Assembly: GCA_049516035.1 (NCBI GenBank)
Contig: JBEKTM010000001.1
Coordinates: forward strand, 1 to 54,136
Direction: 5' to 3'
DNA from: Dehalococcoidia bacterium
GTDB lineage: Bacteria; Chloroflexota; Dehalococcoidia; GIF9; AB-539-J10
Length of the DNA: 54,136 bases
Shown here: positions 1,879 to 53,547 of the stretch, piece by piece
How positions within the stretch are numbered: position 1 is the stretch's first letter
Layout: each line of letters begins with the position of its first letter
The notes under the pieces: model-generated
What the model saw: the letters and a program-made list of their open reading frames with translations, nothing else
The model's database searches: none
What the model was told of the DNA's origin: nothing
Made by a program: the position numbers and the translations under genes

Positions 1879-2391
1879 ATGATTGGCGACAATTTAATAC
1901 AGCAGACCGCTGAAATCATCGATGATCATTTTCATAACTATGAAAATGTTTTTGGCGTAGCTGCAGTCCCGACTGCTACTCATTTCGGAGATCTCGAGGG
2001 CTTGAATCCTTTCCATCTTGTGAGTGGAGCCGCCGCATTTGGAGCGGCGGTCGGGTTAATTGGTACGGCTGACACTCCGGTAAGACCGGAGAAGATTTTA
2101 TTCGATCCAAGAAGGGTATCGATTACCGATACATCGAGCGCTAATCCATATATTTTGAGAATTATCTGGGGTACGCCGGCTCAGACGCCGGCCCAGGCAG
2201 TTATTGCCAAGCAATATACCGATCAGGTGATACAACAGCAAACAGCGAACGGTCAGAATAAACCACAGGATATTTGGTGTGTGAGGATTCCCACCGGCTA
2301 TCAGTTATGGGGAGAAGTCAAGAGTGCCACCAATCTTGCCAGCATCGATATTTTAATTATGATGCACGAATATCCGTCGCCCTCACCTTAA
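1879..2391 (+). CDS. Hypothetical protein (virion module)
   Basis: 170-aa ORF packed 3 nt after the upstream stop, co-directional. No motif recognised. Confidence 0.6.
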   Translation: MIGDNLIQQTAEIIDDHFHNYENVFGVAAVPTATHFGDLEGLNPFHLVSGAAAFGAAVGLIGTADTPVRPEKILFDPRRVSITDTSSANPYILRIIWGTPAQTPAQAVIAKQYTDQVIQQQTANGQNKPQDIWCVRIPTGYQLWGEVKSATNLASIDILIMMHEYPSPSP

Positions 2392-9691: not shown

Positions 9692-10000
9692 ATGGCATTT
9701 CAGGATCCATTTCCGGGAATGAAACCAGAACGCAAGATGACCGAGGCCGAGCAGGTCCGGGCTCTCCGCCTTGACCTGGCGTCCGAAGAAGAAGCTATAT
9801 CCACTTACATGGCGCACGTCGATGCTACCGACGATACCCTGATGCAGATTGTTTTGACTTCCATTGCCGATGAGGAAAGAGTCCATGCCGGCGAACTCCA
9901 GACCCTCATTAACGTTATTAACGGTGACGAATTCACCCAGCAGAACAAGGGAATGAAGGAAGTAGCGGACGTGGCCGGCTCTACAGCGGCTCCGCAGTGA
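9692..10000 (+). CDS. Encapsulated-ferritin-like (EncFtn / ferritin-like two-helix) protein
   Basis: The SEEEAISTYMAHVDATDD...IADEERVHAGEL segment fits the EncFtn pattern E..EA...Y...VDA..D...DEE..HA, with the Glu, Tyr and ExxH ligands present. Stop codon is TGA. Confidence 0.6.
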   Translation: MAFQDPFPGMKPERKMTEAEQVRALRLDLASEEEAISTYMAHVDATDDTLMQIVLTSIADEERVHAGELQTLINVINGDEFTQQNKGMKEVADVAGSTAAPQ

Positions 10001-10027
10001 AAGGGCCTGGACTAAGCCAGGTGGCTT

Positions 10028-10807
10028 ATGCGTTATCGAGCCAGGGTAACACCCTTAAAAGAAGGTCGCCGGCAGGACAAAGAGGCTAGACGGGAATACA
10101 CCCATGCGGTGAGCGTTGACCAGGCCGGCCGCTTTTTAGGATTCAGATTTCCCTATCCGAAGTATCTTGTCACGGATATAGTAGTGGATCCCGAGAAAGA
10201 AATGTCTCAAAAAGAAATTGAGGAAAAGTGGTTTAAGGCGCTTGCCGATATCAAGATCGAATATCCTTATCCGATGTATAATCGTTTGGACTGGAAAAGA
10301 ATATTAAAGAAGCGTGGTGTAATAAAGCCAAAGGAAATCGAAAGGCTTGATATCGAATCTGCCAAGGAAGATGCAGAAAGAGAAAGGGAAGAAGCAGAAA
10401 TAGAGCAAGAAAATAAAGAGGGATCGAGGAAGGTGGCGTTCAGTATGCCGGAAGGAATGATGGAAGCTCAGGAAGTAAGGTTGCTTCTTAATAAAATAAG
10501 GGCAGCGGAAGTCCCGGAGAAGGAACAGGGTGAATGGGATGCCTGGTCGAAATTACTCGATTCGGCTGTTGAAGAAATAGTCAAAAACGCCTCGAATTGC
10601 AACTTGCGTTATGTTCTTCAGACCGGCATGGGGGAAATGACAGAGATAGCGGAACGCATGCACAAAGAAAGTAAGGATTTCCCCCAGAATGCCAGTATTG
10701 GTCTCAATTTAACTGATCTTGAAGACGAAACAATCGAGGCGGTGATCAATTCACTGGCCAGCAAGTGCAGTTGCGCTAACATAACAGAAAGAAAAGAAAA
10801 TTATTAA
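10028..10807 (+). CDS. Hypothetical protein
   Basis: 259-aa ORF. Basic N-terminus and Glu/Lys-rich centre. Confidence 0.6.
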   Translation: MRYRARVTPLKEGRRQDKEARREYTHAVSVDQAGRFLGFRFPYPKYLVTDIVVDPEKEMSQKEIEEKWFKALADIKIEYPYPMYNRLDWKRILKKRGVIKPKEIERLDIESAKEDAEREREEAEIEQENKEGSRKVAFSMPEGMMEAQEVRLLLNKIRAAEVPEKEQGEWDAWSKLLDSAVEEIVKNASNCNLRYVLQTGMGEMTEIAERMHKESKDFPQNASIGLNLTDLEDETIEAVINSLASKCSCANITERKENY

Positions 10808-11401: not shown

Positions 11402-11431
11402 TTGACATGGTATTATTGGTCAGTCTATCAT
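11402..11431 (+). promoter_or_regulatory. Sigma70-like promoter candidate
   Basis: TTGACA, 18-nt spacer, TATCAT. Confidence 0.4.
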
Positions 11432-13084: not shown

Positions 13085-14653
13085 ATGGGCATTATCTATA
13101 ACATTCCCTGCCCCATCTGCGGCGTCTCTCACGGTAATCGCGCCACTCATGATCCGGATAAAAAGTATGTCGTGACATCGCGGCATCTGTTTTGGGAAGA
13201 CGTCGCGGACTTCGATCCTGATAAGCCCTTCGGCGTTATCCAGGAAAGTTTGGGCCGCGGCACTTTCAATACCATTCAGCATTTCTCTCCGAACGAAGAC
13301 CCGACCGGTTCCTTTACCCTTGTGAAAGGGAGAATACTGGCTGTCGTGAAAGAGTGGATCGCGAAGGGATGGATAGACAAGGGAGAGATAAACGGGCTCC
13401 TGGGCGGCGTAGCACAGGGACCTCCCATCGGGCCGGCTAATCCGGTTATTATCAAGCCGTCTCCAAAACAGGCTCCTAAAGAAAGGGCCGGGCCAACCCC
13501 TCCAAAAGAAATAAAGGCGGCCCAGACCAAGCCAAAGAGATTATATTACGTCCAGGTCTTTAATGAGGACACCGAGGAAGTCTCGCGGATGCATTTCTCC
13601 ACTCAGAAAGAAGCTGCCGATACTGCCCGTAATGTGCCGATCGTTAAAGAAAAGAAGCCCGGCTACGTCTATGTTTTCGCCGGCGACGAGAAGGGTATAA
13701 CATCGAAGGACGCCATCTTCTCATACAACTATAAGGAACTCACTGCCAAGGCGACTAACGAGGCCAAGGTGACTCGAGCGAAAGAATCGGCGGAGGCCAA
13801 GAAAAAAGCTGAAGAGGAGATTACCAAAGAGAAGAAGGCGGCCGAACGGAAATTAGCGGCCGAAAATGAAGAAACCCCCAAAGAAAGAGTCCATGCCTTC
13901 CGGAAGGGCATCAAATATTACAGCGAGAACACCGCGAGCCCGATCATCGCCCAGGGAAAATACAGGGGCAAGAAGTTCTATACCGAGGACTCGACTGGCA
14001 CCTTTCTTCCTCCCGAAAGGTGGCCCGAGATCCTTGGCCTTAAAATCAGTAAAAACACGATGTCGGAAGCTGAGTACCAGGAATATACCGCGATAGTGAA
14101 AGAAGCGATTGAAAAGGCCAATGAGGCAGAAGACGCGGCCAAGCTACAAGCGGAGAAGGCCGCAGGGGCCCGGAAAGAGGCTGCACAGGCCCTCTACTCC
14201 CAGATAAAGAAGGGAGATTGGGTTGAGGACACTGACGGCCGGAAGTGGCAGATAGTGAACAAGGGGTCATCGACCTACGAGGTCCTGTCTCCTCAAGGCG
14301 GCAAGGCGTTTATCGGTACGCTGTATGCCGCGCGGATCATCCCGGAACCCCCGGAGGCCAAGCAGCAGAAAGCGGCGGCGCCGGCGCCGGTAGTCAAGAT
14401 AAGAATCAAAGACCGCCTGGTTAACCCTCTTCAAGCGCAGCTGCAGGGGTACATTTTAAGGGGAACGGTAAAGCACTGGACGCCGGTATTCACGATAAGA
14501 GACCAGGCAATGGCGGACCAGGCGGTAAAGGCACTCGAGGCCGGTTTTGAATCTTCTGAGATCAGACGTCTTGAGCCGTGGGACCTGCGCATTCACTGGA
14601 TGGTAGGAGACGAGGAAAATATTATCGGATCGGATATAGAGCCGCCGAAATAA
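13085..14653 (+). CDS. Zinc-ribbon N-terminus plus Lys/Glu/Ala-rich coiled-coil protein
   Basis: 522-aa ORF. CPICG motif at the N-terminus and long KAEEE/KKAAE tracts. AAGGCGGTGA RBS. Confidence 0.65.
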   Translation: MGIIYNIPCPICGVSHGNRATHDPDKKYVVTSRHLFWEDVADFDPDKPFGVIQESLGRGTFNTIQHFSPNEDPTGSFTLVKGRILAVVKEWIAKGWIDKGEINGLLGGVAQGPPIGPANPVIIKPSPKQAPKERAGPTPPKEIKAAQTKPKRLYYVQVFNEDTEEVSRMHFSTQKEAADTARNVPIVKEKKPGYVYVFAGDEKGITSKDAIFSYNYKELTAKATNEAKVTRAKESAEAKKKAEEEITKEKKAAERKLAAENEETPKERVHAFRKGIKYYSENTASPIIAQGKYRGKKFYTEDSTGTFLPPERWPEILGLKISKNTMSEAEYQEYTAIVKEAIEKANEAEDAAKLQAEKAAGARKEAAQALYSQIKKGDWVEDTDGRKWQIVNKGSSTYEVLSPQGGKAFIGTLYAARIIPEPPEAKQQKAAAPAPVVKIRIKDRLVNPLQAQLQGYILRGTVKHWTPVFTIRDQAMADQAVKALEAGFESSEIRRLEPWDLRIHWMVGDEENIIGSDIEPPK

Positions 14654-14662
14654 GAGTGAAAT

Positions 14663-15001
14663 ATGAGCTACGTTGATAATACCGACCTAGTTTGTCCTGT
14701 TTGTGGAAAGCCGATTGTTCATTTCGAGAATCAGGGTTGCTATGAATATCTAAGATGTACTGGTGACCCCATCCGCCATTGCTTTCTTGTGAATTATAAA
14801 ACATGTAAGGAAGAAGATGAGCGTGCCCTTGAAAGCTGGACTTACCTCACTTATAGCGATTACCATAAACCTGGTCCAATCAAGATTGGAATGCGCATAG
14901 AGAATGAGATTAAAGATGAAAGTTCTGGTATACGAAATTATTGGAGAAGCGTAAAAACACCAGAAGCTTACAAAGAAGATTACAAGGAAGGGGAAAATTA
15001 A
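14663..15001 (+). CDS. Zinc-ribbon hypothetical protein
   Basis: 112 aa with CPVCG ... C..C-type cysteines. Confidence 0.6.
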   Translation: MSYVDNTDLVCPVCGKPIVHFENQGCYEYLRCTGDPIRHCFLVNYKTCKEEDERALESWTYLTYSDYHKPGPIKIGMRIENEIKDESSGIRNYWRSVKTPEAYKEDYKEGEN

Positions 15002-15002
15002 A

Positions 15003-15338
15003 ATGCCAAGACAAGTGATGATTCATAAGTTTGGATTATCTCTTTACCCAATCACCCTTGAACTTAATGACAATGAAGATGTCTGTCCAAATTGCAAGGG
15101 GTCAGGCCAAACAACGGTCTATTGTGATCCCGGGCCAAATAGACATACTCCCTGATGGCTATGTTCGAGCACCGGGAAAGTGCCCAAATGTAGGATATGC
15201 GGAGTCCTGGCGGCCGGCTTGTCACTGGAATTTTTGCCTATCACCAAAACAGGTTTATGCCGCGAGTGCGCCAAGGCTGGAATCGAGATTGAGAAAGTAA
15301 AGAAACCCTCGAAGGTGTTTCATAATAATTGGCATTAA
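15003..15338 (+). CDS. Zinc-ribbon protein interrupted by an in-frame TGA (15153..15155): recoding, readthrough or pseudogene
   Basis: The ATG overlaps the upstream stop (TAAAATG). The frame reads ...CPNCKGSG...HTP[TGA]WLCSS...CRICG...CRECAKAG... to TAA at 15336. It replaces the implausible track ORF 15031..15300. Confidence 0.5.
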
Positions 15339-15352
15339 TAAGGGAGGTTATC

Positions 15353-17015: not shown

Positions 17016-17366
17016 ATGAAAGATTATTACGCGATCTTAGAAATTCCCCGGACTTCCAGCGATAACGAAATAAAGCATGCCTATCGCAAGCTGGCATTCA
17101 AGTATCACCCCGACAAGAATCCTGGCCAGGAGAAAGAAGCTGAGGAAAAGTTCAAGGAAATAAACGAGGCTTATAGAGTCCTGGGGGATCCGGCAAAGCG
17201 CCGAAATTATGACCTCGAGAGAAGCCAGCTGTTTAGACCGATGACCCCAATCTTTAATCCTGGATATCCATTTACTACTTATCCATTTACTACTTCAGTA
17301 GGTGTCAACGGCATAAACTTTGGTGGTACCAATATAAGAATGAGATTCTACACCTGGCATACTTAA
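17016..17366 (+). CDS. J-domain (DnaJ-like) co-chaperone protein
   Basis: DYYAILEI...[16 protein letters not shown]...[18 protein letters not shown] is a canonical J-domain with the HPD tripeptide. Confidence 0.85.
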
Positions 17367-18706: not shown

Positions 18707-18916
18707 ATGGATCCCAAAAGATTCAAGTGGGGAAATCATATTTTGAAAGTCGATATCGGGCCGGCGACGTCCGCCGCCATAAAGTCCGGGAAATTGTCAC
18801 GCAATCAGATCAACAAAATGGTCCGGCTCGGCAAGCCGTTCCCGGATATGGTTGTCTCCGATATCAATGACCTGGTAATAAAGAAAGTTAAGGAATATCG
18901 AGAGACTCAAAAATAA
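18707..18916 (+). CDS. Hypothetical protein
   Basis: 69-aa ORF with no clear RBS. Confidence 0.4.
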   Translation: MDPKRFKWGNHILKVDIGPATSAAIKSGKLSRNQINKMVRLGKPFPDMVVSDINDLVIKKVKEYRETQK

Positions 18917-18990
18917 ATACACTATTTAATTAAATGATGAAAGGACCCTCGATTAACCCGGGGGTTCTTTAAATATGAAGAAAGGAGAAA

Positions 18991-19016
18991 TTAATTATTC
19001 CATAGTAACACGCGGG
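18991..19016. repeat. Left arm of the 26-bp inverted repeat flanking gene 19046..19387
   Basis: TTAATTATTCCATAGTAACACGCGGG. Confidence 0.85.
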
Positions 19017-19045
19017 AAATAAAAAATAAAAATCGGAGGTAGCCA

Positions 19046-19387
19046 ATGACACAATTATTGATGACGCCCGAAGGTAAAAAGGTAATAATTAACACAGAAC
19101 ACGACGATAATTTGTACGAAGCTCCGCGCAACCCGCCGAATACAGGAACCAGATTTACATCAGGAACCAATCTTTATGCTCATAAATCCCGAACTGGTAC
19201 TGTTTACTTCTATACTTATTCCTGGAGCATGTGGGAGGGACATGAAGACAACTATGAGCTAGTTTCGGTTGACGATGCGAAAAAGTTTATTCTCGAACGA
19301 TCAACCGAAGCCAGGCGTGTTGCCGGTGGGGTAGACAAACCAACTTGTCTAAAGTATTTCCCTGGTCTCTTTGAGGAAGATGCCTAA
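19046..19387 (+). CDS. Hypothetical protein (gene bracketed by a 26-bp inverted repeat)
   Basis: 113-aa ORF with CGGAGG RBS. Flanked by the inverted repeats at 18991 and 19398. Confidence 0.6.
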   Translation: MTQLLMTPEGKKVIINTEHDDNLYEAPRNPPNTGTRFTSGTNLYAHKSRTGTVYFYTYSWSMWEGHEDNYELVSVDDAKKFILERSTEARRVAGGVDKPTCLKYFPGLFEEDA

Positions 19388-19397
19388 ATAAAATAAA

Positions 19398-19423
19398 CCC
19401 GCGTGTTACTACGGAATAGTTAA
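19398..19423. repeat. Right arm of the 26-bp inverted repeat
   Basis: CCCGCGTGTTACTACGGAATAGTTAA. 24 of 26 positions are complementary to the left arm, and one of the two mismatches would be a G-U pair in RNA. Confidence 0.85.
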
Positions 19424-19457
19424 TTTTAACTTTACGATAAGGAGGGAAGAGAAAGGT

Positions 19458-19625
19458 ATGATCATCTTAACCACAGCACAAGTAAACGAAATTTACGAAG
19501 GGATTGATTTCATGGATGATGAAGTTGGAATAGAACTATGCATCATCCGTGATGGAAAGTACATTCGAGCCAGTTACTTTAATCATAACGGTACAATCAC
19601 TCATATTAAAGAAATCGAGGCGTAA
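19458..19625 (+). CDS. Small hypothetical protein (55 aa)
   Basis: Below the track cutoff. AAGGAGGG RBS. Sequence MIILTTAQVNEIYEG... Confidence 0.5.
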   Translation: MIILTTAQVNEIYEGIDFMDDEVGIELCIIRDGKYIRASYFNHNGTITHIKEIEA

Positions 19626-19626
19626 G

Positions 19627-20010
19627 ATGAAATCTAAATTAATAGTTGGTATTCTTTTATGCCTTTGCTTAACCGCGTGCATTTCAAACAAGCCCGGTGT
19701 CGCCATTCCGCCCGGCAGCTGTACTACCAGCGACAACATTGATATCGATTCCAATGAACAAATAACAATTCAGCTGCACACCGACCAATGGCAGCAGGGC
19801 AATATTAAGGTCGTTAATACCCAGGATGCCGACTGCCTTATAGTCGAGACTGACAGACATGATAGCGACGAGACGTGGGACATAATAATAAATATAGTTC
19901 CGCAGAACCAATCGGGTGAAGACACCTACCGCGTCGTGTTGAGTAACCAGTCCAGCCAGGCAATGCATGCATCGATAAACTATTTAATTGGTCAAAAAGG
20001 GGAAGTGTAA
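19627..20010 (+). CDS. Lipoprotein (signal peptide plus lipobox)
   Basis: MKSKLIVGILLCLCLTAC carries the L-T-A-C lipobox. The start is internal to the track ORF 19549..20010. Confidence 0.65.
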   Translation: MKSKLIVGILLCLCLTACISNKPGVAIPPGSCTTSDNIDIDSNEQITIQLHTDQWQQGNIKVVNTQDADCLIVETDRHDSDETWDIIINIVPQNQSGEDTYRVVLSNQSSQAMHASINYLIGQKGEV

Positions 20011-20013
20011 GAA

Positions 20014-20238
20014 ATGAAACCCTCATGGATCAAGGTTGATGAAGAGCGCGTCCTGTCCGACGGAAGCAAGGCAAGCGTAGAGCATGTCGGCCGGATGTAC
20101 TTCTACTCCCGCCTCTACCTGAATCCGGAAGAGAATCCCATGGAGCATCAAGGTTTTACCGGCAAGGGCTCCAAAAACAAGGCCATGAAAATACTCGAAG
20201 AAGCATTGAAAAACGATGTTCTCGAGAAGGAGGAGTAG
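20014..20238 (+). CDS. Hypothetical protein
   Basis: 74-aa ORF, tightly packed. Confidence 0.5.
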   Translation: MKPSWIKVDEERVLSDGSKASVEHVGRMYFYSRLYLNPEENPMEHQGFTGKGSKNKAMKILEEALKNDVLEKEE

Positions 20239-20240
20239 CT

Positions 20241-20468
20241 TTGGAAAATGACGAAAAATATTATCCGAAAATAAGAATATTCGTCACCCGCAATTTTAAA
20301 TTCCGTGTCGAGATCAAAGAGAATAAAGATGCCAGACCCTACCAAATTACGATGGGTGGCGAAGCATGGAATTCGGGCTCGGGCCGTAAATACGAGAAAA
20401 TTATAAAAGAGAAGCTGAATAAAATCATAATTCAGCTCTCAACTGAAGCCGAATCTCTTTTAAGGTAA
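20241..20468 (+). CDS. Hypothetical protein
   Basis: TTG start 7 nt after GGAGG. Confidence 0.5.
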   Translation: MENDEKYYPKIRIFVTRNFKFRVEIKENKDARPYQITMGGEAWNSGSGRKYEKIIKEKLNKIIIQLSTEAESLLR

Positions 20469-20478
20469 GGAGGAGTAA

Positions 20479-20646
20479 ATGGAATTCCTGGAAAACAAAA
20501 TTCTTTATATCTTCGGTGAAGACGGATATTTCATTGAGGATACCAAGACCCACGAAATATGGAAGCTCAGGCCAGCGACTCCTGAAGAGCGCGATGAACT
20601 GCTTCAGCGAATGATGAAAAACTCCAATAAAGCTCTTCCGAATTAG
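20479..20646 (+). CDS. Small hypothetical protein (55 aa)
   Basis: Below the track cutoff. AAGGAGG RBS. Sequence MEFLENKILYIFGEDGYF... Confidence 0.5.
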   Translation: MEFLENKILYIFGEDGYFIEDTKTHEIWKLRPATPEERDELLQRMMKNSNKALPN

Positions 20647-20649
20647 CTT

Positions 20650-20665
20650 TATTTCTTGAGAAATA
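20650..20665. repeat. Palindrome variant TATTTCTTGAGAAATA (copy 2, one mismatch)
   Basis: Ends 16 nt before ATG 20682. Confidence 0.8.
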
Positions 20666-20681
20666 TTTTAGGGAGGTGATC

Positions 20682-21080: not shown

Positions 21081-21089
21081 AGGAGGAAT

Positions 21090-21338: not shown

Positions 21339-21342
21339 CATG
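21323..21342 (+). repeat. Direct repeat A1 (GAAGAAAGAAGGTTAACATG)
   Basis: 19 of 20 positions identical to 21516..21535. Confidence 0.85.
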
Positions 21343-24626: not shown

Positions 24627-25703
24627 ATGACTTATGGGCCAAGAAGTCTAAAAGAACTCTACAAGCAACCGGCACACCGGACTGTGAGAGAAGTGATTAC
24701 GTCCCTTAAGGAATGGGATAAAATCCATGACCCTATGGACCGCGGCGGCATCCTGTCTCAGTTCCAGTTCATTGTTGAGGAAAGCACTGACAGCCCGGTA
24801 CCCAGATCGGCATCACTTGTCCCTTTCTCAAGTTCTATAGAGAAGAGCATCCAAGCACCCATTTATTTAATGCAACATTCTCAAGATCAACTCTTCTCCC
24901 GCCTGAGATACCCCAAAGACCTCTACGAACGCATCCCGGCAAAGCTCAACGTGCTGAACGTCAATTATCTCATCCAGCATGAAGAGAAAGACCGCGATAT
25001 CTGTCTCCGCCTTCAGGACGGCAACCAGGCAAGGGCGCTCGTATCCGGCAGATACGAGGCGTTCGATAACCTCGACCTACTATCCCTCCTTGAACCGTTT
25101 ACCGAAGACGCTCAGGTACGCTGGGAATACAACGACGGCCTTACTTTCCATCTTTCCGTCACGTTTCCCCAGACGGCCCGGGAGCTCCGGGTGGGCGATG
25201 TGGTCGAACAGGGCATCCATATCTCAAACTCGGAGGTTGCCCTGAGATCCGTTACGGTCGCCGCCTACATCTTGAAACTTAAGTGCATGAACGGGCTGAT
25301 CGGCGGCGGTAATGACGGCGGATTCTTCCGGGTCCGTCATACCGGCGACCACTCCAGGCTTTCGGATGTGGTTAAAGCGGCAATCGATTCTATCAAGATG
25401 GAAGCGGAAGGTCTAACGGCCCGTTTCAGAATGGCGCTCGATACCGCGATATCCGATCCGGTCAAAGAAATAGAAAGATTATCCAAAGAAGGAAATCTCT
25501 CCCAGGAAGCCTACAAAGCTTCCCTCGATGCCATTCTGGGAGACCCGGATGCCCATACCCTGTACGGCGTCACCAATGCCTTCACTACAGCCGCACACCA
25601 ATTTGACGGAGAACAATCTTTCGAGCTCCAGAGAATGGGTGCCAAGGCTCTCACGGAAGGGAGGGGGACTCTGATAGCCAACAGGCAGATCAGTCCCATT
25701 TAA
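24627..25703 (+). CDS. DUF932-like phage/plasmid protein
   Basis: HISNSEVALRSVTVAAYILKLKCMNGL resembles the DUF932 core (..NS.DGS....r.vC.NG.). Adjacent to a ParB-like gene, as is common for this family. Confidence 0.55.
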   Translation: MTYGPRSLKELYKQPAHRTVREVITSLKEWDKIHDPMDRGGILSQFQFIVEESTDSPVPRSASLVPFSSSIEKSIQAPIYLMQHSQDQLFSRLRYPKDLYERIPAKLNVLNVNYLIQHEEKDRDICLRLQDGNQARALVSGRYEAFDNLDLLSLLEPFTEDAQVRWEYNDGLTFHLSVTFPQTARELRVGDVVEQGIHISNSEVALRSVTVAAYILKLKCMNGLIGGGNDGGFFRVRHTGDHSRLSDVVKAAIDSIKMEAEGLTARFRMALDTAISDPVKEIERLSKEGNLSQEAYKASLDAILGDPDAHTLYGVTNAFTTAAHQFDGEQSFELQRMGAKALTEGRGTLIANRQISPI

Positions 25704-25712: not shown

Positions 25713-26033
25713 ATGGCTAAGTGCGAAAACTGCGGACAAGAAATGCTTAAAGCCGATGGATGCACCTATACATACATTCGGCCAAAAGGAGATCCTAAAT
25801 GGTATAAGCGCCTCACCGATGGCTACGCCCAGCCCGGCGAACGGTGACAGGATTGCGGTGCCCTGTATGGGCACACTCACCATTTTGGATGCGATAACGA
25901 ACGCTGCCCGAAATGCGGTGGACAAATCATATCTTGTAATTGTTTCACCGAGAATTCCGAGCTTGCCAATATGGTACCGCTGGCACCGAAGGAGGTGAAA
26001 AGCAATAAACAAACTGACCCGTTTAGCCAATAG
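25713..26033 (+). CDS. Zinc-ribbon protein interrupted by an in-frame TGA (25845..25847): recoding, readthrough or pseudogene
   Basis: GGAG RBS. Reads MAKCENCG...GYAQPGER[TGA][32 protein letters not shown]... to TAG at 26031. There is no start codon for the second half. It replaces the track ORF 25756..25998. Confidence 0.55.
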
Positions 26034-35034: not shown

Positions 35035-36633
35035 ATGAGAATAGATACCAGCCTGGGATTACCTAGCCGTTACGAATACTGGAGAGACGACCAGTATCGA
35101 GCGGTTGAGGCAATCACCAAATCAGACAAGCCAATGTTTCTCCTGGATGCGCCCACGGGCATAGGAAAGAGTATAACCGGGATTGGTGCGCATCGGATTT
35201 TAAAGCAAAGGTGCATATATCTTTGCGGCACCAAACAGCTTCAAAATCAGATAATGCATGATTTTTCTGATATTGCAGTAAGTTTGAAGGGGAGAGCTAA
35301 TTATCCTTGTCTCATGAAAGAGACGCAGTTTCCAGAAGTGACCGCGGATGATTGTTCTTATCCCAAACCATCAAGTTGCAAATATTACGATGATTGTCCT
35401 TATTTTTGTGCTAAAGCGGAAGCTAAAAATTCTCCGCTCGTTGTCTTGAATAACGCTTATTTTCTAAACGAAGCGAATGGTGATTTTTCGACATTTGGAG
35501 AGACAGAGTTTTTGATCGCGGATGAAGTTGATGCATTAGATACAGCTCTACTCGGGTATATCGAGTTTACGGTTACGACAAAGCAGCTGGATAAGTTCGG
35601 GTTGCGCCCGCCGGAAAATCCGGAGTACAAGTCGAACTGGATGAATTGGATACCTGGAGTGCTCAAGTCCTTAGGGCCGTGGATCTCGGGTTATAAGGTG
35701 CAGCTGGAGGATACCGACTCCTCTCGGTGGGGGCCGATCGAGATAGAGCTTAACCGGCAAATGAAGAAGATGGACAAGCTTTACGGGAAGCTGTATTTCC
35801 TTAAGAGCGAGGTGGATGATTCCTGGGTCTTCTTCAGCCATGAGACGAAAGACGGCCACGAGTGGGTATTCAAGCCGGTCGTCGTCGGGAAATATGGAGA
35901 CCAGTATCTTTGGAGCCATGGTCAACATGCCTTGGGAATGTCCGGGACGATATTCGATCCGCAGATAACCTGTGTTGATCTCGGTATAAACGATTGTGAT
36001 TACATGAGGCTTGATTCGCCCTTCCCAGTAGAGAACCGGCCGATTTATTATAAACCCGTGGTCAATCTCACCCGGAAGACGATGGACATTGAGCTCCCCG
36101 TTCTTGCCCTTGAGATTAACGATATCCTGGAGAAATACCCGGCGCAGAAAATCCTGATTCATACGGTGAGCTATAAGGTCAGGGATTATCTTTTGAGCCA
36201 TCTTGCTGCACAGTGGCGGCTGGTTACGCATGATAGTCGGACGCGGGAAATGGCGCTCGAAGATTTCAAAAGCAGTAAAGAACCATTGGTAATGTTATCG
36301 CCGTCATTTGATCGTGGGGTTGATTTACCCATAGCTGATAACGTTGGTGCGATTGTGGTCTGCAAAATGCCCTTCATGGACTTATCCGATCCCCAAATAA
36401 AAGCCAGGATGGGTCTTCCGGATGGTGCCAGATGGTATGCTTTAAAAGCCGGCCAGACCTTGGTGCAGCAAACAGGAAGATCAGTCAGGTCGAAAGATCA
36501 GAGATGTGATATTTATATTCTTGATTCTCAATTTTCCCGTCTCCGTCGCCAATTGTTAGATGTTCTTCCGAGATGGTGGTTAACGGCGGTGCAGGAGATT
36601 CCGATTGGTAAGAGGGTAGATCAGCTGCTATGA
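35035..36633 (+). CDS. XPD/DinG (Rad3)-family ATP-dependent DNA helicase with Fe-S Cys cluster
   Basis: DAPTGIGKS (Walker A), LIADEVDAL (box II), four Cys in YPCL...DDCSY..SSCKYYDDCPYFC, and QQTGRSVRS (motif VI). Stop codon is TGA. Confidence 0.8.
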   Translation: MRIDTSLGLPSRYEYWRDDQYRAVEAITKSDKPMFLLDAPTGIGKSITGIGAHRILKQRCIYLCGTKQLQNQIMHDFSDIAVSLKGRANYPCLMKETQFPEVTADDCSYPKPSSCKYYDDCPYFCAKAEAKNSPLVVLNNAYFLNEANGDFSTFGETEFLIADEVDALDTALLGYIEFTVTTKQLDKFGLRPPENPEYKSNWMNWIPGVLKSLGPWISGYKVQLEDTDSSRWGPIEIELNRQMKKMDKLYGKLYFLKSEVDDSWVFFSHETKDGHEWVFKPVVVGKYGDQYLWSHGQHALGMSGTIFDPQITCVDLGINDCDYMRLDSPFPVENRPIYYKPVVNLTRKTMDIELPVLALEINDILEKYPAQKILIHTVSYKVRDYLLSHLAAQWRLVTHDSRTREMALEDFKSSKEPLVMLSPSFDRGVDLPIADNVGAIVVCKMPFMDLSDPQIKARMGLPDGARWYALKAGQTLVQQTGRSVRSKDQRCDIYILDSQFSRLRRQLLDVLPRWWLTAVQEIPIGKRVDQLL

Positions 36634-39911: not shown

Positions 39912-40580
39912 TTATCTGCAAACAGCATCTTTTTTTGAAATCTCACCGGATTTTACTTTGTAAGCTAAAAGTTTGATTTTAGCCATGTCTGGTTTATTCT
40001 CGTCTGTTAATTTTGATTTTTCGGTTGTGGGTTCCGTAAGTACCGTTGGTTTTAGTGGTATTGTTCCTTCGATGGCTTTTCTCATTGAGCGTAATTCTGG
40101 TACCAGGGTGACAAAAAACTCTTTGGGATGTTTGGCTACTTCGTTTGGCCCCCAGTTATATTTGCTGCACCAATCTCTAATATGTTGATAGATTGGTTTT
40201 TGTGACATTGTTTGGAGCTCTTCTGCCGTGATATCCATTTCGTTGGTATGCTTTTGTAGGCAATCACATGGAATATCATTAATTCGAGCACCTTCAAGCA
40301 AATCTTCCACGAGACGCAGTATTTGTCTTATTAGTCTTTTGTCGAGTTGCCGAATGGTCTCTTCGGTAGTCGGTTTACGGAAGGGCTCAATTTTATTTTG
40401 TGTTAATGCGGTGTCAATGGTGGTGTTCAAAGCTAAATTGGTTGGTTTCTCGGGTAGATTTTCTGCCTCTTGTGAGGAGGCTGGGACAAGTTTAAAATGG
40501 TGGGCTACCGCCAGGTGGATGGTGTCGCTGGCGATTTGGCCGCCCGTCTGGAATAACCATGCTGTAAATCTTGGGTCCAT
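39912..40580 (-). CDS. Hypothetical protein, first gene of the leftward operon (apparently leaderless)
   Basis: 222 aa. There is no SD sequence. The ATG lies about 6-7 nt after a TTGACA-17-TTTAAT promoter on the - strand. Confidence 0.6.
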   Translation of the reverse strand: MDPRFTAWLFQTGGQIASDTIHLAVAHHFKLVPASSQEAENLPEKPTNLALNTTIDTALTQNKIEPFRKPTTEETIRQLDKRLIRQILRLVEDLLEGARINDIPCDCLQKHTNEMDITAEELQTMSQKPIYQHIRDWCSKYNWGPNEVAKHPKEFFVTLVPELRSMRKAIEGTIPLKPTVLTEPTTEKSKLTDENKPDMAKIKLLAYKVKSGEISKKDAVCR

Positions 40581-43236: not shown

Positions 43237-43575
43237 ATGGATTATGATAGTTTCCAGAGGATTTTGGATGCTCATGGAATATCAAATGAGCCAGCTTTTA
43301 AAGATCTTTCTGTAGAAATCGCGCCCATTCCTGCCGACGAAAACGGGAAAAGGGCGCTTGGTTTATATTTCCCCGAAGACAAACTTATCGTTATTCCCCC
43401 CGAACTTTCTCCTAATCCCGGTGCTATTGGCGAGTCAGTAGAACTGCATGAGCTCGGTCACCGGTTTGGCCATTATCATTACAACAATCTCACCGAACAA
43501 TTTGCCGAAGATTACCGTCAAAAGTATCAGGGCAAGCTCGAGTACCATTTCCACGAAAACAACGTGGTAACTTGA
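43237..43575 (+). CDS. Minimal metzincin-motif metallopeptidase-like protein
   Basis: HELGHRFGHYH is an exact HExxHxxGxxH match. First gene after the late promoter. Stop codon is TGA, in frame with the next ORF. Confidence 0.5.
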   Translation: MDYDSFQRILDAHGISNEPAFKDLSVEIAPIPADENGKRALGLYFPEDKLIVIPPELSPNPGAIGESVELHELGHRFGHYHYNNLTEQFAEDYRQKYQGKLEYHFHENNVVT

Positions 43576-43599: not shown

Positions 43600-44130
43600 A
43601 TGATGCAGGTTGCACCGGCACTGGTTAAAGCGAGCCCGTGTGATTATTGCCACGCTCCGGAGAGGCTATGCCCGTTTTGTAAATTTGGCGGGCGGCCCGT
43701 GAGCGTTGGTTTTGGCCCTGGTATTTCTGTTGCGGATGTCGCGGTTATTACTGGCCAAATACAGAAAGTTGAGATCATGTGGAATGGCCAGTCGGTTACA
43801 AAAGTCCCGGTCGGCCAAAATTTTAATATTAGGGCAACGATCGTGGCAAATAATCCTGGTGGGGGTTTCTGGCAGATCGGCCTTACGGTAATCGAGATTC
43901 CAGCGACAGGGCAAGCAACTGGCCAGGGGGAAGTTGCTAATCTTGGTACATTCGCAAATAGCACAATTGGTAAAAATAATGGCATTTCCACCGGGATAGG
44001 ATCGGGATATTTTGATATAACCGATCTCGGGTCTTTTGTCATGCCAAACACAGATTTGAGGTTAAGGGTCAAACTGTGGGGTTATCCGTTCCAGGATACC
44101 AGCGTATTACCTGATAGGAGCGCCTGGTAA
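43600..44130 (+). CDS. Hypothetical protein (Cys-rich N-terminus plus beta-sandwich-like C-terminus)
   Basis: AAGGAGG RBS. CDYC...CPFC motif. Confidence 0.6.
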   Translation: MMQVAPALVKASPCDYCHAPERLCPFCKFGGRPVSVGFGPGISVADVAVITGQIQKVEIMWNGQSVTKVPVGQNFNIRATIVANNPGGGFWQIGLTVIEIPATGQATGQGEVANLGTFANSTIGKNNGISTGIGSGYFDITDLGSFVMPNTDLRLRVKLWGYPFQDTSVLPDRSAW

Positions 44131-48387: not shown

Positions 48388-49332
48388 GTGATTAGTGAAC
48401 TTTCCCCGTTGTTCCATGACGGTGTAGCCCTTATCCGGCCGGAAGATGCCCAGCTCAGAAAGCATAGCTGGGTAAGATTCTCGAAGAGATGGCCGAATGA
48501 TCTCAATAAGGGTGGATGGGCCTCCGGTCAGACATTTGTTGTGAGACAGGATACCGTTCTGGTTGACTATCCCGTTTCCAGGATCATCGTTGACCAGGAC
48601 TGGGCCGTCCTCGACCTCACAAATCAGAGCCTTCCGGCAATTCCGGGTGTGCCGCATCCGACTGCCTTCCAGGCGGGTACATTCCAGATGTACCCCGTAA
48701 ATCCCGATATCATCTATCAGATCTCTGTCGGGATGAAAAAGGGCGACTATTTCAACCAGCTACAGATATCGAGCCAGAGCCTCAATATCTATCAGCTCGG
48801 CTCTTCGGCGATTCCACCTGCTATGATCGATCCGGTTTATCGGTACTTGGGTGCGAAGTATCCCAAAGACTCCCCTTATAATAGCCCTACCTGGTTTTTA
48901 TATTCCATTTTGAACGCGCCTCAGATTCTTTTGAATGTGTTCATGGACGGCGGTGATACCATGGTCGGGGCTAACCACTATGGCAAGGCGACCATAGATT
49001 TCCGCGTCAATAAGGCCCAGCTCACCAATATCACACTTGCCAGCATCGCTGCGGTGAGTATTCCTTACGGGTCCAATCTTACCGTTGTTGTACCGAGCGG
49101 TAATGTCGCTTGTGTTTACGGCGGTCAGAAAGGAGATACCAGAATCACTGATTCGCGCGGGGGTGTTTCCGCCGTCGCAAACGGCCAGGAAACCGTAGTA
49201 CCTTCCGGATGGACGGTTCAGACCGGCTCCGGTTCCGCCCTCATTACCACCATGGAAGATGTCCGCCAGTGGCGGAGTATCCAGGAACGGGCTCTTTATA
49301 TCCCATTCTATGATGAGTTGAACGTATTTTGA
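48388..49332 (+). CDS. Hypothetical virion protein
   Basis: GTG 48388 lies 7 nt after TAGGAGG (the track starts at TTG 48382). Stop is TGA followed by a second in-frame TGA. Confidence 0.6.
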   Translation: MISELSPLFHDGVALIRPEDAQLRKHSWVRFSKRWPNDLNKGGWASGQTFVVRQDTVLVDYPVSRIIVDQDWAVLDLTNQSLPAIPGVPHPTAFQAGTFQMYPVNPDIIYQISVGMKKGDYFNQLQISSQSLNIYQLGSSAIPPAMIDPVYRYLGAKYPKDSPYNSPTWFLYSILNAPQILLNVFMDGGDTMVGANHYGKATIDFRVNKAQLTNITLASIAAVSIPYGSNLTVVVPSGNVACVYGGQKGDTRITDSRGGVSAVANGQETVVPSGWTVQTGSGSALITTMEDVRQWRSIQERALYIPFYDELNVF

Positions 49333-51774: not shown

Positions 51775-53547
51775 ATGGCAATCGGAAGCGCAGTTCCGCC
51801 ACTAGTTAAGGGATTGGTATTTGATACTCTTGTAACCTCGGTTATCAGCCCGACTATGTTCGCTTGTACCCTCAGTGGATTCAAGGATGATTTTTTCCAG
51901 GATTGGGACGTTTACGTCGTCTGCAAAAATGATGGTTCTGGTGGGCCTCCGCAGGGCGATTCCGTTATCTGCACGAGCTATGTCGGAGCAACGGGTACAT
52001 TTACACTGTTCTCTGCCTTCGGGACCCCGCTTTCCGTTGGTGATGAGCTGTATATCATGCAGCCATCCGTCAATGCAAACACAATTGTAACCACGTTCCC
52101 ATCCGATAACGTCAAACTTTCCAGCCCCGCGCTTGTATCGACATCCTCCATAGCCTATGTCAAGGTAAAAGAGCTTCCGTTCACCGGCAACCAGGGCGGA
52201 GCGCGTATCAAGTTCGACATGAGGATCAGTGTTCCCGGTGGGACCGCCTCTGCCGTAATATACAAGAACGGTGTGCCGGTCCCGACCTCGGTGGCTCCGT
52301 TCTTTATTGTTTTTACCGATTCGACAGGTGTATTCACTACGTTCAGCCAGGATGTTTACGGCTTGTCTGCCGGCGATCTGATTCAGGTTTATGCGAAAGC
52401 AGATCTGGTTACTCATACCACCTTTGTCAAGAATTTTACCATCGGGTATGATACGATCACGTTCCCGAGCGTCGGCATTGCTCTCGATGCGGTTTACATC
52501 GATCCGGTTAACGGCACAGCGGGAACAACATGGCCTATCGGGACTGCCGGTAAGCCCGTTAATAATCTGACCGACGCAATAATAATATCCGGGTTCCTGA
52601 ATACGAGTAACTTCCATATCAAAAACAGATTGGTACTCGATCAGGACTTATTAAAACCATTTACTTTCATTGGCGATGGTGATTGGTTCACGTCAGGAGT
52701 AGACCTAAACACTCACGATGTTGCCACATCAACATTTATTAATCTGGCGATAGAAGGCTCCAGCCCGGGCTTTCTTACCGCTTTTGGGTGTTTTGTAACC
52801 GGTTCGATAGCCAACCCGGCGATATTATGCATGATAGATGCGACTCTGAATGGTTGTCTCATCGGCAGTATTGCGGGTATTCCCCTGGGGTTTGGCATTA
52901 ATGCTTTTAATTGCACATCATGGGGGCCTCCGTACCTGGGTGTCTCTTTGTCGGGTGGAGGACTATTCGCATGGGTGGGTGGTCAGGGTGACGTGAGCGT
53001 AATTAACATGGATAACCCCGCCTGCTTCTTCTACCTTTCCGCCATCAGTGTCTCACTTAATGTGTCGGCGTCATGCACTGCTGGTCTCGTCCAGATCGCC
53101 GCGGCTGCCATCGTATTTGTTGACCTGGCCGCAACGGTTACCCTTGATGATGAGTGGACTTTCGCGCCGGGCAAACATAATGTTCTCTACCGCCACGTTA
53201 TCTTTCCGGCCAATTCCGGCTTGCATGTAATGTGGACGGCCACCGATGCTATGAAAATCGTCGAGCTTGTCTTACAGGCGAGAGGCGCTGCTACGCCGGA
53301 CATGACGACCGCGGCTATATATGGTGGCCCCGCCGATGTATTAACGATGCTCGATCCGTTCCGGGCAACCCGGGCGAATTTGCTTGTCAATGGTATGCTT
53401 CAGCAGGCCGAAGGACCGTGGATACTGGAAGCCGGCGACACCATAGATATAGACCTGGTTGGCACCGGTGCCGGTGCTACGAATCTCGGCATAAACGTAG
53501 TGTTCGAGCCTATTCAGTTCGGTGCTTATCTGGTACGAGGCCCGTAG
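51775..53547 (+). CDS. Fibre/adhesin-like protein
   Basis: 590 aa. The internal VNGTAGTTWPIGTAGKPVNNLTDAI motif is shared with the N-terminus of the ORF at 53713. Confidence 0.65.
   Translation: MAIGSAVPPLVKGLVFDTLVTSVISPTMFACTLSGFKDDFFQDWDVYVVCKNDGSGGPPQGDSVICTSYVGATGTFTLFSAFGTPLSVGDELYIMQPSVNANTIVTTFPSDNVKLSSPALVSTSSIAYVKVKELPFTGNQGGARIKFDMRISVPGGTASAVIYKNGVPVPTSVAPFFIVFTDSTGVFTTFSQDVYGLSAGDLIQVYAKADLVTHTTFVKNFTIGYDTITFPSVGIALDAVYIDPVNGTAGTTWPIGTAGKPVNNLTDAIIISGFLNTSNFHIKNRLVLDQDLLKPFTFIGDGDWFTSGVDLNTHDVATSTFINLAIEGSSPGFLTAFGCFVTGSIANPAILCMIDATLNGCLIGSIAGIPLGFGINAFNCTSWGPPYLGVSLSGGGLFAWVGGQGDVSVINMDNPACFFYLSAISVSLNVSASCTAGLVQIAAAAIVFVDLAATVTLDDEWTFAPGKHNVLYRHVIFPANSGLHVMWTATDAMKIVELVLQARGAATPDMTTAAIYGGPADVLTMLDPFRATRANLLVNGMLQQAEGPWILEAGDTIDIDLVGTGAGATNLGINVVFEPIQFGAYLVRGP

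What the first reader, a model, noticed from the sequence alone, without database searches (positions are those of the whole stretch)
15003..15338. Second in-frame UGA at a CxxC position in another early zinc-ribbon gene
ATG 15003 overlaps the upstream stop (TAAAATG). The frame reads ...DVCPNCKGSGQTTVYCDPGPNRHTP-[TGA 15153-15155]-WLCSSTGKVPKCRICGVLAAG...TGLCRECAKAGIEIEKVKK... and ends at TAA 15336.

- With the TGA decoded, the protein has two complete four-ligand ribbons: CPNC + [TGA]WLC, and CRIC + CREC.
- Without it, the first ribbon lacks a partner knuckle, and the second half would have to start at a GTG (15180) that has no RBS.
- The ORF-track alternative (15031..15300, other frame) has a TTG start, no RBS and non-protein-like sequence.

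Two independent genes with a TGA at the same structural position, first residue of X-x-x-C, is hard to ascribe to chance. TGA still terminates other genes here (9692..10000, 35035..36633, 43237..43575, 48388..49332), so any decoding must be context-specific. Only a weak 4-bp hairpin (15169-15183) follows the TGA.
Basis: partly seen in the sequence, partly recalled or inferred. Interest (0 to 1): 0.72.

Follow-up and report, generated by a model that had tools for sequence, protein, structure and literature searches.

The report
Stop codon replacing cysteine in phage zinc-finger
A small early gene of an uncultured ~54-kb phage is interrupted by one UGA stop codon exactly where a zinc-binding cysteine should be, as is a second gene in the same phage, so the phage may make selenocysteine (or cysteine) proteins by reading through UGA, which has not been described for a phage but is not proven here.

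Summary
ATG 15003 opens 50 codons, then TGA 15153-15155, then 60 more codons in the same frame to TAA 15336-15338.

- **The TGA is real.** The 336-nt gene is base-for-base identical in six independent assemblies.
- **Both halves look like one gene.** Each half favours this frame in a coding model. A phage protein family (phrog_28723) and Pfam DnaJ_CXXCXGXG align across the TGA, and neither half matches alone. The TGA is the first residue of the second CxxC knuckle of a DnaJ/anti-TRAP-like zinc finger.
- **TGA is not generally reassigned.** 56 genes hold 190 TGG codons and no in-frame TGA.
- **The second gene supports recoding.** In 25713..26033 the TGA column is Cys in 95 of 95 homologues.
- **A hairpin follows, but it is weak evidence.** It meets the published bacterial SECIS rules (loop 17 nt after UGA, -9.4 kcal/mol), yet 12% of random positions do as well.
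- **No comparative test is possible.** The protein has no homologue anywhere, the host is unknown, and no tRNA or SECIS family was detected.

Best reading: UGA is recoded to selenocysteine by host machinery (about 0.42). Rivals are a fixed nonsense mutation, cysteine-inserting suppression, and separate peptides. If true, this is a new variant of a known mechanism.

The parts
15003..15338 (+). Proposed single ORF of 111 codons (50 codons, UGA, 60 codons, TAA). The product is a small protein with four CxxC knuckles.
   Evidence: Translation. Both halves favour this frame. phrog_28723 and PF00684 matches span the TGA. Gene callers leave this slot empty in every contig read.
14984..14993 (+). SD-like AAGGAAGGGG, 9 nt before ATG 15003. 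The upstream gene's TAA ends 1 nt before the ATG, so translational coupling is plausible.
   Evidence: Sequence read directly. Function is inferred.
15084..15107 (+). Repeat 1: CPNCKGSG (residues 28-35), a perfect CxxCxGxG motif of the DnaJ / anti-TRAP type.
   Evidence: Anti-TRAP 3lcz aligns TCPNCNGSG.
15153..15155 (+). In-frame TGA (codon 51), the first position of X-W-L-C-S-S-T-G (repeat 2). Proposed Sec (or Cys) codon.
   Evidence: Identical in 6 assemblies. Putting Cys here raises PF00684 from 11.5 to 23 bits and phrog_28723 from 21.1 to 25.8 bits.
15159..15193 (+). Imperfect stem-loop starting 3 nt after the UGA. It has a 7-bp lower stem, a 4(+1)-bp upper stem (15169-15172 / 15180-15183) and apical loop CGGGAAA (15173-15179), which begins 17 nt after the UGA. 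Candidate bacterial SECIS.
   Evidence: MFE -9.4 kcal/mol. It meets the four bSECIS rules quoted in PMC13188914. It is not distinguishable from chance: z = -0.5, and 12% of random positions do as well.
15189..15200 (+). Repeat 3: CRIC (residues 63-66).
15258..15269 (+). Repeat 4: CREC (residues 86-89).
25713..26033 (+). Sister gene with in-frame TGA at 25845-25847, followed by a 40-nt hairpin (25848-25887; loop UGUAU 16 nt after the UGA; -15.4 kcal/mol). It is the only comparative evidence for how this phage uses UGA.
   Evidence: The TGA column is Cys in 15/15 database and 80/80 viral-contig homologues. Hairpin z = -2.2. Identical in 6 further assemblies.
17016..17366 (+). J-domain protein (context). 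Together with the DnaJ-zinc-finger-like ORF it could form a split DnaJ-like pair. This is speculative.
   Evidence: PF00226, E = 4e-29. The functional link is inference only.
11402..11431 (+). Sigma-70-like promoter (TTGACA-18-TATCAT) in the intergenic gap upstream of the gene string that contains this ORF (context; points to a bacterial host).
   Evidence: This is a consensus match only.

Best explanation
The region 15003..15338 is one gene for a 111-residue, four-knuckle zinc-finger protein. It is of the DnaJ cysteine-rich / anti-TRAP type but has no detectable homologue. Codon 51, the first ligand of the second CxxC knuckle, is UGA.

The most likely mechanism is as follows. During infection the UGA is recoded as selenocysteine by the host's SelB and Sec-tRNA. 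These would be recruited by the stem-loop that starts 3 nt after the UGA and puts its apical loop 17 nt downstream. The result is a U-x-x-C site. Ribosomes that are not recoded stop and release a 50-residue fragment.

The same device is used in 25713..26033.

Shown: the sequence is real, the two halves form one continuous domain, the position is Cys-equivalent, TGA is not globally reassigned, and the hairpin formally matches the SECIS model. Inferred: that decoding occurs at all, that the inserted residue is Sec, that the hairpin is the signal, and what the protein does (probably binds a host protein, perhaps working with the phage J-domain protein at 17016).
For: - **The TGA is real and stable.** It is identical in 6 assemblies from different projects. 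No TGY or Trp allele of the full-length protein exists among about 15 billion predicted proteins.
- **The domain runs across the stop.**
  - phrog_28723 aligns residues 20-68 at E = 6.6e-4 even with X at codon 51, and at 2.4e-5 with Cys. Neither half alone matches.
  - PF00684 DnaJ_CXXCXGXG aligns residues 25-66 at E = 9.7e-5 with Cys, against about 0.4 with X, W or G. Neither half matches alone.
- **Both halves look coding in the same frame.** Each favours the frame by 16-17 bits.
- **Only two split ORFs exist, and both share the pattern.** Both have the TGA as X of X-x-x-C. Random nonsense would hit such a codon with probability 7.7% x 6.1%.
- **Sister gene.** The TGA column is an invariant Cys in 95 of 95 homologues, and all 16 invariant residues downstream of the TGA are retained. 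A Cys/Sec pair is the standard criterion for predicting selenoproteins (PMC13188914).
- **Both UGAs are followed at once by 35-40-nt hairpins.** Their loops lie 16-17 nt downstream and have G at loop position 2. They meet the bSECIS rules at -9.4 and -15.4 kcal/mol. Joint background is about 0.124 x 0.018.
- **Not a code change.** 190 TGG and 0 TGA in 13,753 codons.
Against: - **No homologue of this protein exists in any database searched.** Its Cys/Sec status rests on motif logic and on the sister gene.
- **The hairpin at this site is not significant.** z = -0.5, 59-61 of 200 shuffles fold as well, and 12% of random positions pass.
- **The sister hairpin is not unique either.** It is matched by 5 of 63 Cys-encoding homologues.
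- **No shared sequence motif and no Rfam SECIS or tRNA-Sec hit**.
- **The host is unknown,** so the presence of selA/B/C/D cannot be checked.
- **The sister TGA is unique.** It is the only one among about 115 viral-contig family members, which also fits a one-off nonsense mutation.
- **All copies are 99.99% identical,** so there is no evolutionary test of selection on the second half.
- **The Pfam match is below the curated cut-off** (23 bits against 32.7).
- **No phage selenoprotein was found in the literature searched**, so the prior is low.
Confidence: 0.42

Rival explanations
1. Fixed nonsense mutation with no recoding. A TGY Cys codon mutated to TGA in a dispensable accessory gene, and independently in 25713..26033. 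Only the 50-residue N-terminal fragment is made. That fragment still has C28, C31, C41 and H48 and could bind zinc alone. The second half is a recent, not yet decayed remnant.
For: - TGY to TGA is a single third-position change.
- Cys codons make up 17-20% of the nonsense-capable sites in these Cys-rich genes.
- The sister TGA is unique among about 95-115 homologues.
- All known copies are one clone at 99.99% identity, so a recent mutation could be everywhere.
- The hairpin at this site is no better than chance.
- Gene callers and databases treat the slot as empty.
Against: - The only two interrupted genes in the genome were both hit at the first Cys of a CxxC. Joint probability is about 0.5%, or about 3.5% for any Cys.
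- There is no other damage in either gene: no frameshift and no second stop.
- All 16 invariant residues downstream of the sister TGA are intact.
- Both alleles persist in strains with different neighbouring gene content, and in samples from several projects.
- Both sites have a hairpin in SECIS position.
Confidence: 0.27
2. UGA is decoded as cysteine, or read through at a low level, rather than as Sec. The agent would be a host opal-suppressor tRNA, such as a selC*-type tRNA-Cys(UCA) delivered by SelB or an allo-tRNA suppressor, or a near-cognate tRNA-Cys or tRNA-Trp. The product is an ordinary Cys4 zinc finger in low yield, so the UGA acts as an expression throttle.
For: - Natural tRNA-Cys species with opal UCA anticodons next to selB are described, as are allo-tRNA nonsense suppressors in Acidobacteria and in peat/forest-soil metatranscriptomes (PMC5389517).
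- The only weak host hints point to Acidobacteriota. The helicase is 30% identical to that of a Tunturiibacter phage. The primase-polymerase is 35% identical to Bryobacteraceae and Acidobacteriia MAG sequences.
- This reading needs no strong SECIS, which fits the weak hairpin at this site.
- Three of the five to six TGA-terminated genes have a back-up stop within 6 codons.
Against: - No suppressor tRNA is encoded in the window.
- The host assignment is very weak, with no synteny.
- A free EF-Tu-dependent suppressor would also read the TGA stops of the helicase (35035..36633, giving a 54-codon extension) and would fuse 43237..43575 to 43600..44130.
- Read-through by tRNA-Trp would destroy the metal site. 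Pfam and PHROG scores with W equal those with X.
Confidence: 0.15
3. There is no single gene here. Either two separate small peptides are made (50 aa from ATG 15003 and about 52 aa from GTG 15180), or the other-frame ORF 15031..15300 is the real gene, or the stretch is non-coding.
For: - Both alternative ORFs exist mechanically.
- The codon-usage signal in the proposed frame is weak (0.03-0.05; near the 5th percentile of real genes).
- One data source called a 39-aa fragment from an internal TTG.
Against: - GTG 15180 has no SD with usable spacing.
- The other-frame ORF has a TTG start, no family match, and scores 16-23 bits worse.
- Family matches need both halves joined.
- Four regularly spaced CxxC knuckles in one frame are not expected from non-coding DNA.
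Confidence: 0.08
4. The host and phage use a genetic code in which UGA is generally a sense codon, such as Trp (code 4), Gly (code 25) or a new Cys assignment.
For: - TGA is the rarest stop: about 8 of 89 crude ORFs.
- Several TGA stops are backed up by a nearby TAA or TAG.
Against: - There are 190 TGG and 0 in-frame TGA in 13,753 codons of 56 genes.
- Only two in-frame TGAs exist in about 54 kb, and both are at Cys positions, not Trp or Gly positions.
- Sequence after the helicase TGA is non-coding-like and overlaps the next gene.
Confidence: 0.04

Closest known systems
Bacterial selenoprotein genes with an in-ORF SECIS (E. coli fdhF type; bSECIS model of Zhang and Gladyshev as summarised in PMC13188914)
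   Same: - In-frame UGA at a Cys-equivalent position.
- A hairpin that starts right after the UGA, with its apical loop 16-17 nt downstream and G in the first two loop positions, and MFE at or below -7.5 kcal/mol.
- The U-x-x-C arrangement.
   Different: - The gene is carried by a phage.
- This protein has no Cys homologue.
- The hairpin is not statistically distinguishable from background.
- The host Sec machinery is unverified.
- The protein is a small zinc-finger-like binder, not an oxidoreductase.
DnaJ cysteine-rich domain (PF00684, CxxCxGxG x4) and anti-TRAP RtpA (PF15777; PDB 3lcz)
   Same: - A perfect CPNCKGSG first repeat.
- Four CxxC knuckles.
- The profile alignment covers residues 25-66.
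- Anti-TRAP aligns over residues 19-60.
- A small size, like anti-TRAP.
   Different: - Scores are below the curated cut-offs: 23 against 32.7 bits, and 14.6 against 32 bits.
- Repeats 2-4 lack the GxG part of the motif.
- The repeat spacing is 23/12/23 residues.
- One ligand is encoded by UGA.
Stop-codon reassignment in phages (TAG to Gln or TGA to Trp in late genes of crAss-like, Lak and other phages). This comparison rests on my own knowledge, not on a tool result.
   Same: A phage ORF that looks broken under the standard code.
   Different: - Here there are only two sites, both at Cys positions, in the early/replication region.
- There are no suppressor tRNA or release-factor genes in the genome.
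- TGA is otherwise absent inside genes.
selC* tRNA-Cys(UCA) and allo-tRNA opal suppression (PMC5389517)
   Same: It would put Cys at a UGA that replaces a Cys codon, possibly through SelB and a SECIS-like hairpin. Such tRNAs are described from anaerobes, Acidobacteria and peat/forest-soil data.
   Different: No such tRNA was found in the window. The host is unknown, and nothing was tested here beyond reading the paper.
Eukaryotic-virus selenoproteins (poxvirus glutathione peroxidase homologues; reviewed in PMC6769590, found). The details are from my own knowledge.
   Same: A virus borrows the host's Sec-insertion machinery for its own gene.
   Different: Those are captured host enzymes with a 3'-UTR SECIS. 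This would be a bacterial-type in-ORF signal in a phage protein without homologues.

Membership tests
Bacterial selenoprotein gene | In-frame UGA inside a continuous coding region | tested here: met
   - 50 codons, UGA, then 60 codons.
- Both halves favour the same frame.
- Family matches span the UGA.
Bacterial selenoprotein gene | Homologues carry Cys at the UGA column (Cys/Sec pair) | tested here: inconclusive
   - No homologue of this protein exists in any search.
- The profile columns prefer Cys: +11.5 bits for PF00684 and +4.7 bits for phrog_28723.
- The feature is met for the sister gene only, with 95 of 95 Cys.
Bacterial selenoprotein gene | bSECIS hairpin: loop of 3-9 nt, stem of at least 4 bp, G in the first two loop positions, 16-37 nt after the UGA, MFE at or below -7.5 kcal/mol | tested here: inconclusive
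   - All four rules are formally met: spacing 17, loop CGGGAAA, -9.4 kcal/mol.
- However, 22% of random positions pass the rules and 12% reach -9.4; z = -0.5.
Bacterial selenoprotein gene | The host has selA, selB, selC and selD | not testable with these tools
   - The host is unknown.
- There are only 30-42% identity hits to Acidobacteriota and Rubrobacter MAG or phage proteins, without synteny.
- No tRNA-Sec is encoded in the window.
Bacterial selenoprotein gene | Selenium is incorporated at the UGA | not testable with these tools
   This needs 75Se labelling or mass spectrometry.
DnaJ_CXXCXGXG zinc finger (PF00684) | Score at or above Pfam's gathering threshold (32.7 bits) | tested here: not met
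   23.0 bits (E = 9.7e-5) with Cys at codon 51, and 11.5 bits with X. The protein resembles the family but is not a member by Pfam's rule.
DnaJ_CXXCXGXG zinc finger (PF00684) | Four CxxCxGxG repeats that form two zinc centres | tested here: inconclusive
   - Four CxxC knuckles are present if codon 51 is Cys or Sec. Only repeat 1 has the full CxxCxGxG motif.
- The structure of the joined protein could not be predicted, because the tool refuses a sequence that is not an exact translation of the window.
Anti-TRAP (PF15777 / NF058604) | Score at or above the curated cut-off | tested here: not met
   14.6 bits against 32 for Pfam, and 11.5 bits against 65 for NCBIfam. The PDB 3lcz match has E = 0.94.
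Alternative genetic code with UGA as a general sense codon (codes 4 and 25) | Many in-frame UGAs at Trp or Gly positions across genes | tested here: not met
   0 TGA against 190 TGG in 13,753 codons. The only two in-frame TGAs are at Cys positions.
Phage-encoded suppressor-tRNA recoding | A suppressor tRNA gene in the phage genome | tested here: not met
   ARAGORN finds 0 tRNA genes. Rfam finds nothing at the gathering threshold or at E up to 5.

The most novel reading that the evidence does not exclude
The uncultured bacterial host of this phage, possibly from peat or soil, reads UGA ambiguously. UGA would serve as a rare cysteine (or SECIS-independent selenocysteine) codon through a tRNA(UCA) of the selC* or allo-tRNA kind, as well as a stop. 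The phage has adapted to this: two ligand cysteines are written as UGA, and genes that really end in TGA carry back-up stops. This would be a bacterial counterpart of the Euplotes UGA=Cys code. It would be visible so far only through a phage.
Probability: 0.06. Interest if true: 0.9.

Novelty: new variant of a known kind. Interest (0 to 1): 0.6.

Why it matters
Selenocysteine insertion is known in cells and in a few eukaryotic viruses. I found no report of a phage-encoded selenoprotein in 8.3 million full-text papers.

If the two UGAs are decoded, three things would follow:
- Phages can plug their own genes into the host's SelB/SECIS system, or into a Cys-inserting opal suppressor.
- Sec can serve as a ligand or redox centre in a DnaJ-type zinc finger.
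- Production of early phage proteins could be tied to the host's selenium and Sec-tRNA status.

There is also a practical point. Gene callers leave this slot empty in all 47 contigs read across the two neighbour look-ups. Such genes are therefore invisible in protein databases, and a targeted screen for 'TGA at a conserved Cys' in viral contigs could find more.

If the UGAs are plain nonsense mutations, the finding is ordinary.

Tried and rejected
**Homologue searches for the joined protein: all empty**
- 5.8-billion-protein word/HMMER search.
- IMG/VR peptide scan.
- JGI metagenome scan. That collection evidently does not hold this phage.
- tblastn against 50,697 phage genomes.
- Full HMMER search with the C-terminal half against 1.84 billion representatives. 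It found only the gene's own 39-aa fragment.

**Searches for diverged relatives through neighbouring genes: failed**
- The 522-aa and 134-aa neighbours have no relatives in viral contigs.
- The last protein search, with the 522-aa protein, returned only itself, probably swamped by its low-complexity region.
- Exact look-ups returned only 99.99%-identical copies.

**Host identification: failed**
- No DNA match to any phage.
- Structural-region proteins have no phage match.
- The primase-polymerase gives only 35-42% hits in Acidobacteriota and Rubrobacter MAGs, without synteny.
- Sample accession numbers are not mentioned in any searchable paper.

**RNA signals: nothing**
- Rfam shows no SECIS, no tRNA-Sec and nothing else at either threshold, including short-window scans of both sites.
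- A two-sequence RNAalifold run and a local alignment of the two downstream regions show no shared motif beyond chance.

**Other TGA-bearing members of the sister family: none**
- Two fixed-spacing patterns in viral contigs gave only 2 chance hits.
- One pattern in metagenome contigs gave none.

**Structure**
- The joined protein cannot be submitted for structure prediction or for the representative search.

**Readings considered and rejected**
- Assembly error (six assemblies agree).
- Code 4 or code 25.
- A phage-encoded suppressor tRNA.
- The UGAUG overlap as a restart site. That ATG opens only a 12-codon ORF in another frame (read).
Full report
**1.

The upstream gene ends at TAA 14999-15001. 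One base later, ATG 15003 opens a frame of 50 codons that stops at TGA 15153-15155. The same frame then stays open for 60 more codons to TAA 15336-15338, which is followed by a second TAA.

- An SD-like AAGGAAGGGG lies 9 nt before the ATG.
- The joined product reads MPRQVMIHKFGLSLYPITLELNDNEDV-CPNC-KGSGQTTVYCDPGPNRHTP-[UGA]-WLC-SSTGKVPK-CRIC-GVLAAGLSLEFLPITKTGL-CREC-AKAGIEIEKVKKPSKVFHNNWH.

**2. The TGA is not an artefact.**

The neighbouring 112-aa protein is indexed in 56 data blocks.

- The 336-nt gene, including the TGA, is identical in six contigs assembled independently: ENA ERZ27249969, JGI 3300038424/25/51, Logan SRR13021960 and SRR7027740.
- These copies are 99.99% identical to the window over 10 kb. 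They prove the base call but give no evolutionary signal.
- No allele of the full-length protein with Cys or Trp at codon 51 exists among about 15 billion predicted proteins.
- Every gene caller left the slot 15002-15352 empty.

**3. It behaves as one gene.**

- A 3-periodic Markov model trained on 56 genes of the window prefers the ATG-15003 frame for both halves. The margins over the next-best frame are 16.3 and 17.5 bits. This is near the 5th percentile of real genes, so weak but positive.
- phrog_28723 aligns residues 20-68, across the stop. E = 6.6e-4 with X at codon 51 and 2.4e-5 with Cys. Neither half alone matches.
- Pfam DnaJ_CXXCXGXG (PF00684) aligns residues 25-66 at E = 9.7e-5 (23 bits) with Cys. 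With X, W or G it scores 11.5 bits, and it does not match either half alone. This is below Pfam's 32.7-bit cut-off, so I call the protein DnaJ-zinc-finger-like, not a member.
- CPNCKGSG is a perfect CxxCxGxG repeat and aligns to anti-TRAP (3lcz; E about 1).
- The other-frame ORF has no family match and a worse coding score.

**4. Is the position more than chance?**

- Across all six frames, 44 TGAs have at least 40 open codons on both sides. Only two have Cys three residues later: this site and 25845. They are also the only two that lie in otherwise gene-free slots and are surrounded by CxxC motifs.
- If both were random nonsense hits, the chance of striking the first Cys of a CxxC is 7.7% x 6.1%. 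For any Cys it is 17% x 20%.

**5. TGA is not a general sense codon here.**

- In 56 confident genes (13,753 codons) there are 190 TGG, 148 TGY and no in-frame TGA.
- TGA ends a handful of genes. After the helicase TGA (36631) the frame turns non-coding-like and overlaps the next gene.
- No tRNA gene and no Rfam family is present in the window, even at E up to 5.

Any decoding must therefore be site-specific and must use host factors.

**6. The sister gene supplies the only comparative evidence.**

- For 25713..26033, 15 database homologues (44-63% identity) and 80 viral-contig homologues all carry TGC or TGT at the TGA column, in the motif R-C-x-D-C. All 16 invariant residues after the TGA are retained in the window's copy.
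- That TGA is also identical in six further assemblies, some with different upstream genes.
- It is, however, the only TGA in the family. Pattern scans for other TGA-bearing members found none.
- A Cys/Sec pair is the standard SECIS-independent criterion for selenoproteins (PMC13188914). A lone TGA at an invariant Cys is also what a fresh nonsense mutation looks like.

**7. RNA signal.**

The published bacterial SECIS model asks for four things: a 3-9-nt apical loop on a stem of at least 4 bp, G in the first two loop positions, 16-37 nt between the UGA and the loop, and MFE at or below -7.5 kcal/mol (PMC13188914).

| Site | Hairpin | Loop, spacing after UGA | MFE (kcal/mol) | z-score | Random positions doing as well |
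|---|---|---|---|---|---|
| This gene (15153) | 15159-15193 | CGGGAAA, 17 nt | -9.4 | -0.5 | 12% |
| Sister gene (25845) | 25848-25887 | UGUAU, 16 nt | -15.4 | -2.2 | 1.8% |

- The model is loose: 22% of random positions in this genome pass it.
- Five of the 63 Cys-encoding homologues of the sister gene reach -15.4.
- The two sites share an architecture but no sequence motif.

The hairpin is compatible with a SECIS, but at this site it is not evidence by itself.

**8. Context and host.**

- The window is essentially a complete, circularly permuted genome of about 54 kb.
- It encodes an integrase, ParB, RusA, a primase-polymerase, a helicase, a J-domain protein and a Pam3-gp34-like protein. Otherwise it has almost no database relatives.
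- Perfect TTGACA -35 boxes in intergenic gaps and strong GGAGG ribosome-binding sites indicate a bacterial host.
- The best protein hits point weakly to Acidobacteriota. The helicase is 30% identical to that of a Tunturiibacter phage. The primase-polymerase is 35-42% identical to sequences from Bryobacteraceae, Acidobacteriia and Rubrobacter MAGs. There is no synteny.
- Whether the host has selABCD is unknown.

**9. Mechanism.**

I commit to Sec insertion by host SelB at the 15159-15193 hairpin as the single most likely mechanism (about 0.42). It would give a U-x-x-C site, with termination producing a 50-residue by-product.

- U-x-x-C as a metal site has a precedent in [NiFeSe] hydrogenases (PMC13582414 abstract).
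- Cys insertion by an opal-suppressing tRNA is a real alternative (about 0.15). Such tRNAs include selC* tRNA-Cys(UCA), found next to a putative selB, and allo-tRNAs, found in Acidobacteria and in peat/forest-soil data (PMC5389517).
- A fixed nonsense mutation remains substantial (about 0.27), because nothing here shows translation past the UGA.
- The function is inferred. It is a small early zinc-finger binder of a host protein. It may act with the J-domain protein 1.7 kb downstream as a split DnaJ mimic.

**10. Novelty.**

Two literature searches found no report of a phage-encoded selenoprotein. If confirmed, this is a new variant of a known mechanism in a new carrier and a new protein type. 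If it is a nonsense mutation, it is ordinary. For this gene alone the evidence is weaker than for its sister, because it has no homologues. The pair together is what makes it worth an experiment.

Noticed in passing
window 1-54136; L098, L104: The window is a complete, circularly permuted genome. Contigs from other samples run from gene 51775..53547 through a 356-aa ORF straight into 1879..2391. No host flanks are seen, although an integrase is present.
   Followed up: partly
window 2401-4719; L107, L108: The 772-aa gene is replaced by 928-aa and 1206-aa versions in otherwise matching contigs from other samples. It is a hypervariable locus, probably a tail fibre or receptor-binding gene.
   Followed up: no
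window ~18766-24628; L001, L002: There is a strain-level replacement or deletion. L001 jumps from 18987 to 24613 and L002 from 18766 to 23635 relative to the window. Upstream neighbours of gene 24627..25703 also differ between samples.
   Followed up: no
window 43237-44130: TGA 43573 separates two coding-like ORFs in the same frame (43237..43575 and 43600..44130). The second has its own AAGGAGG site, so this is probably ordinary, but read-through would fuse them.
   Followed up: partly
window 9998-10060: The TGA that ends 9692..10000 is followed by a bSECIS-like hairpin (-10.3 kcal/mol, loop AGGU 18 nt downstream) and by a TAA four codons later. Other TGA stops (40186, 49330) also have back-up stops within 1-6 codons. 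The numbers are too small to be significant.
   Followed up: partly
window 17016-17366: A stand-alone J-domain protein (PF00226, E = 4e-29) lies 1.7 kb downstream of the DnaJ-zinc-finger-like ORF. The two may form a split DnaJ-like pair.
   Followed up: no
window 13085-15001: The two genes just upstream also begin with CxxC zinc-ribbon motifs (CPICG in the 522-aa protein; CPVCGK, weakly Lar-like or ligase-ZBD-like, in the 112-aa protein). The early region is unusually rich in small zinc-ribbon proteins.
   Followed up: no
window 38480-41000: This stretch is poorly coding on the + strand and holds the only sizeable minus-strand ORF (39912..40580). It may be a regulatory or lysogeny switch region.
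   Followed up: no
window 25713-26033 and loci L018-L097: The sister gene belongs to a widespread phage family (115 viral-contig hits) with the signature RCxDCG...[16 protein letters not shown]. It has no Pfam family. Its AlphaFold model is confident (pLDDT 90.8) but matches no PDB fold.
   Followed up: partly
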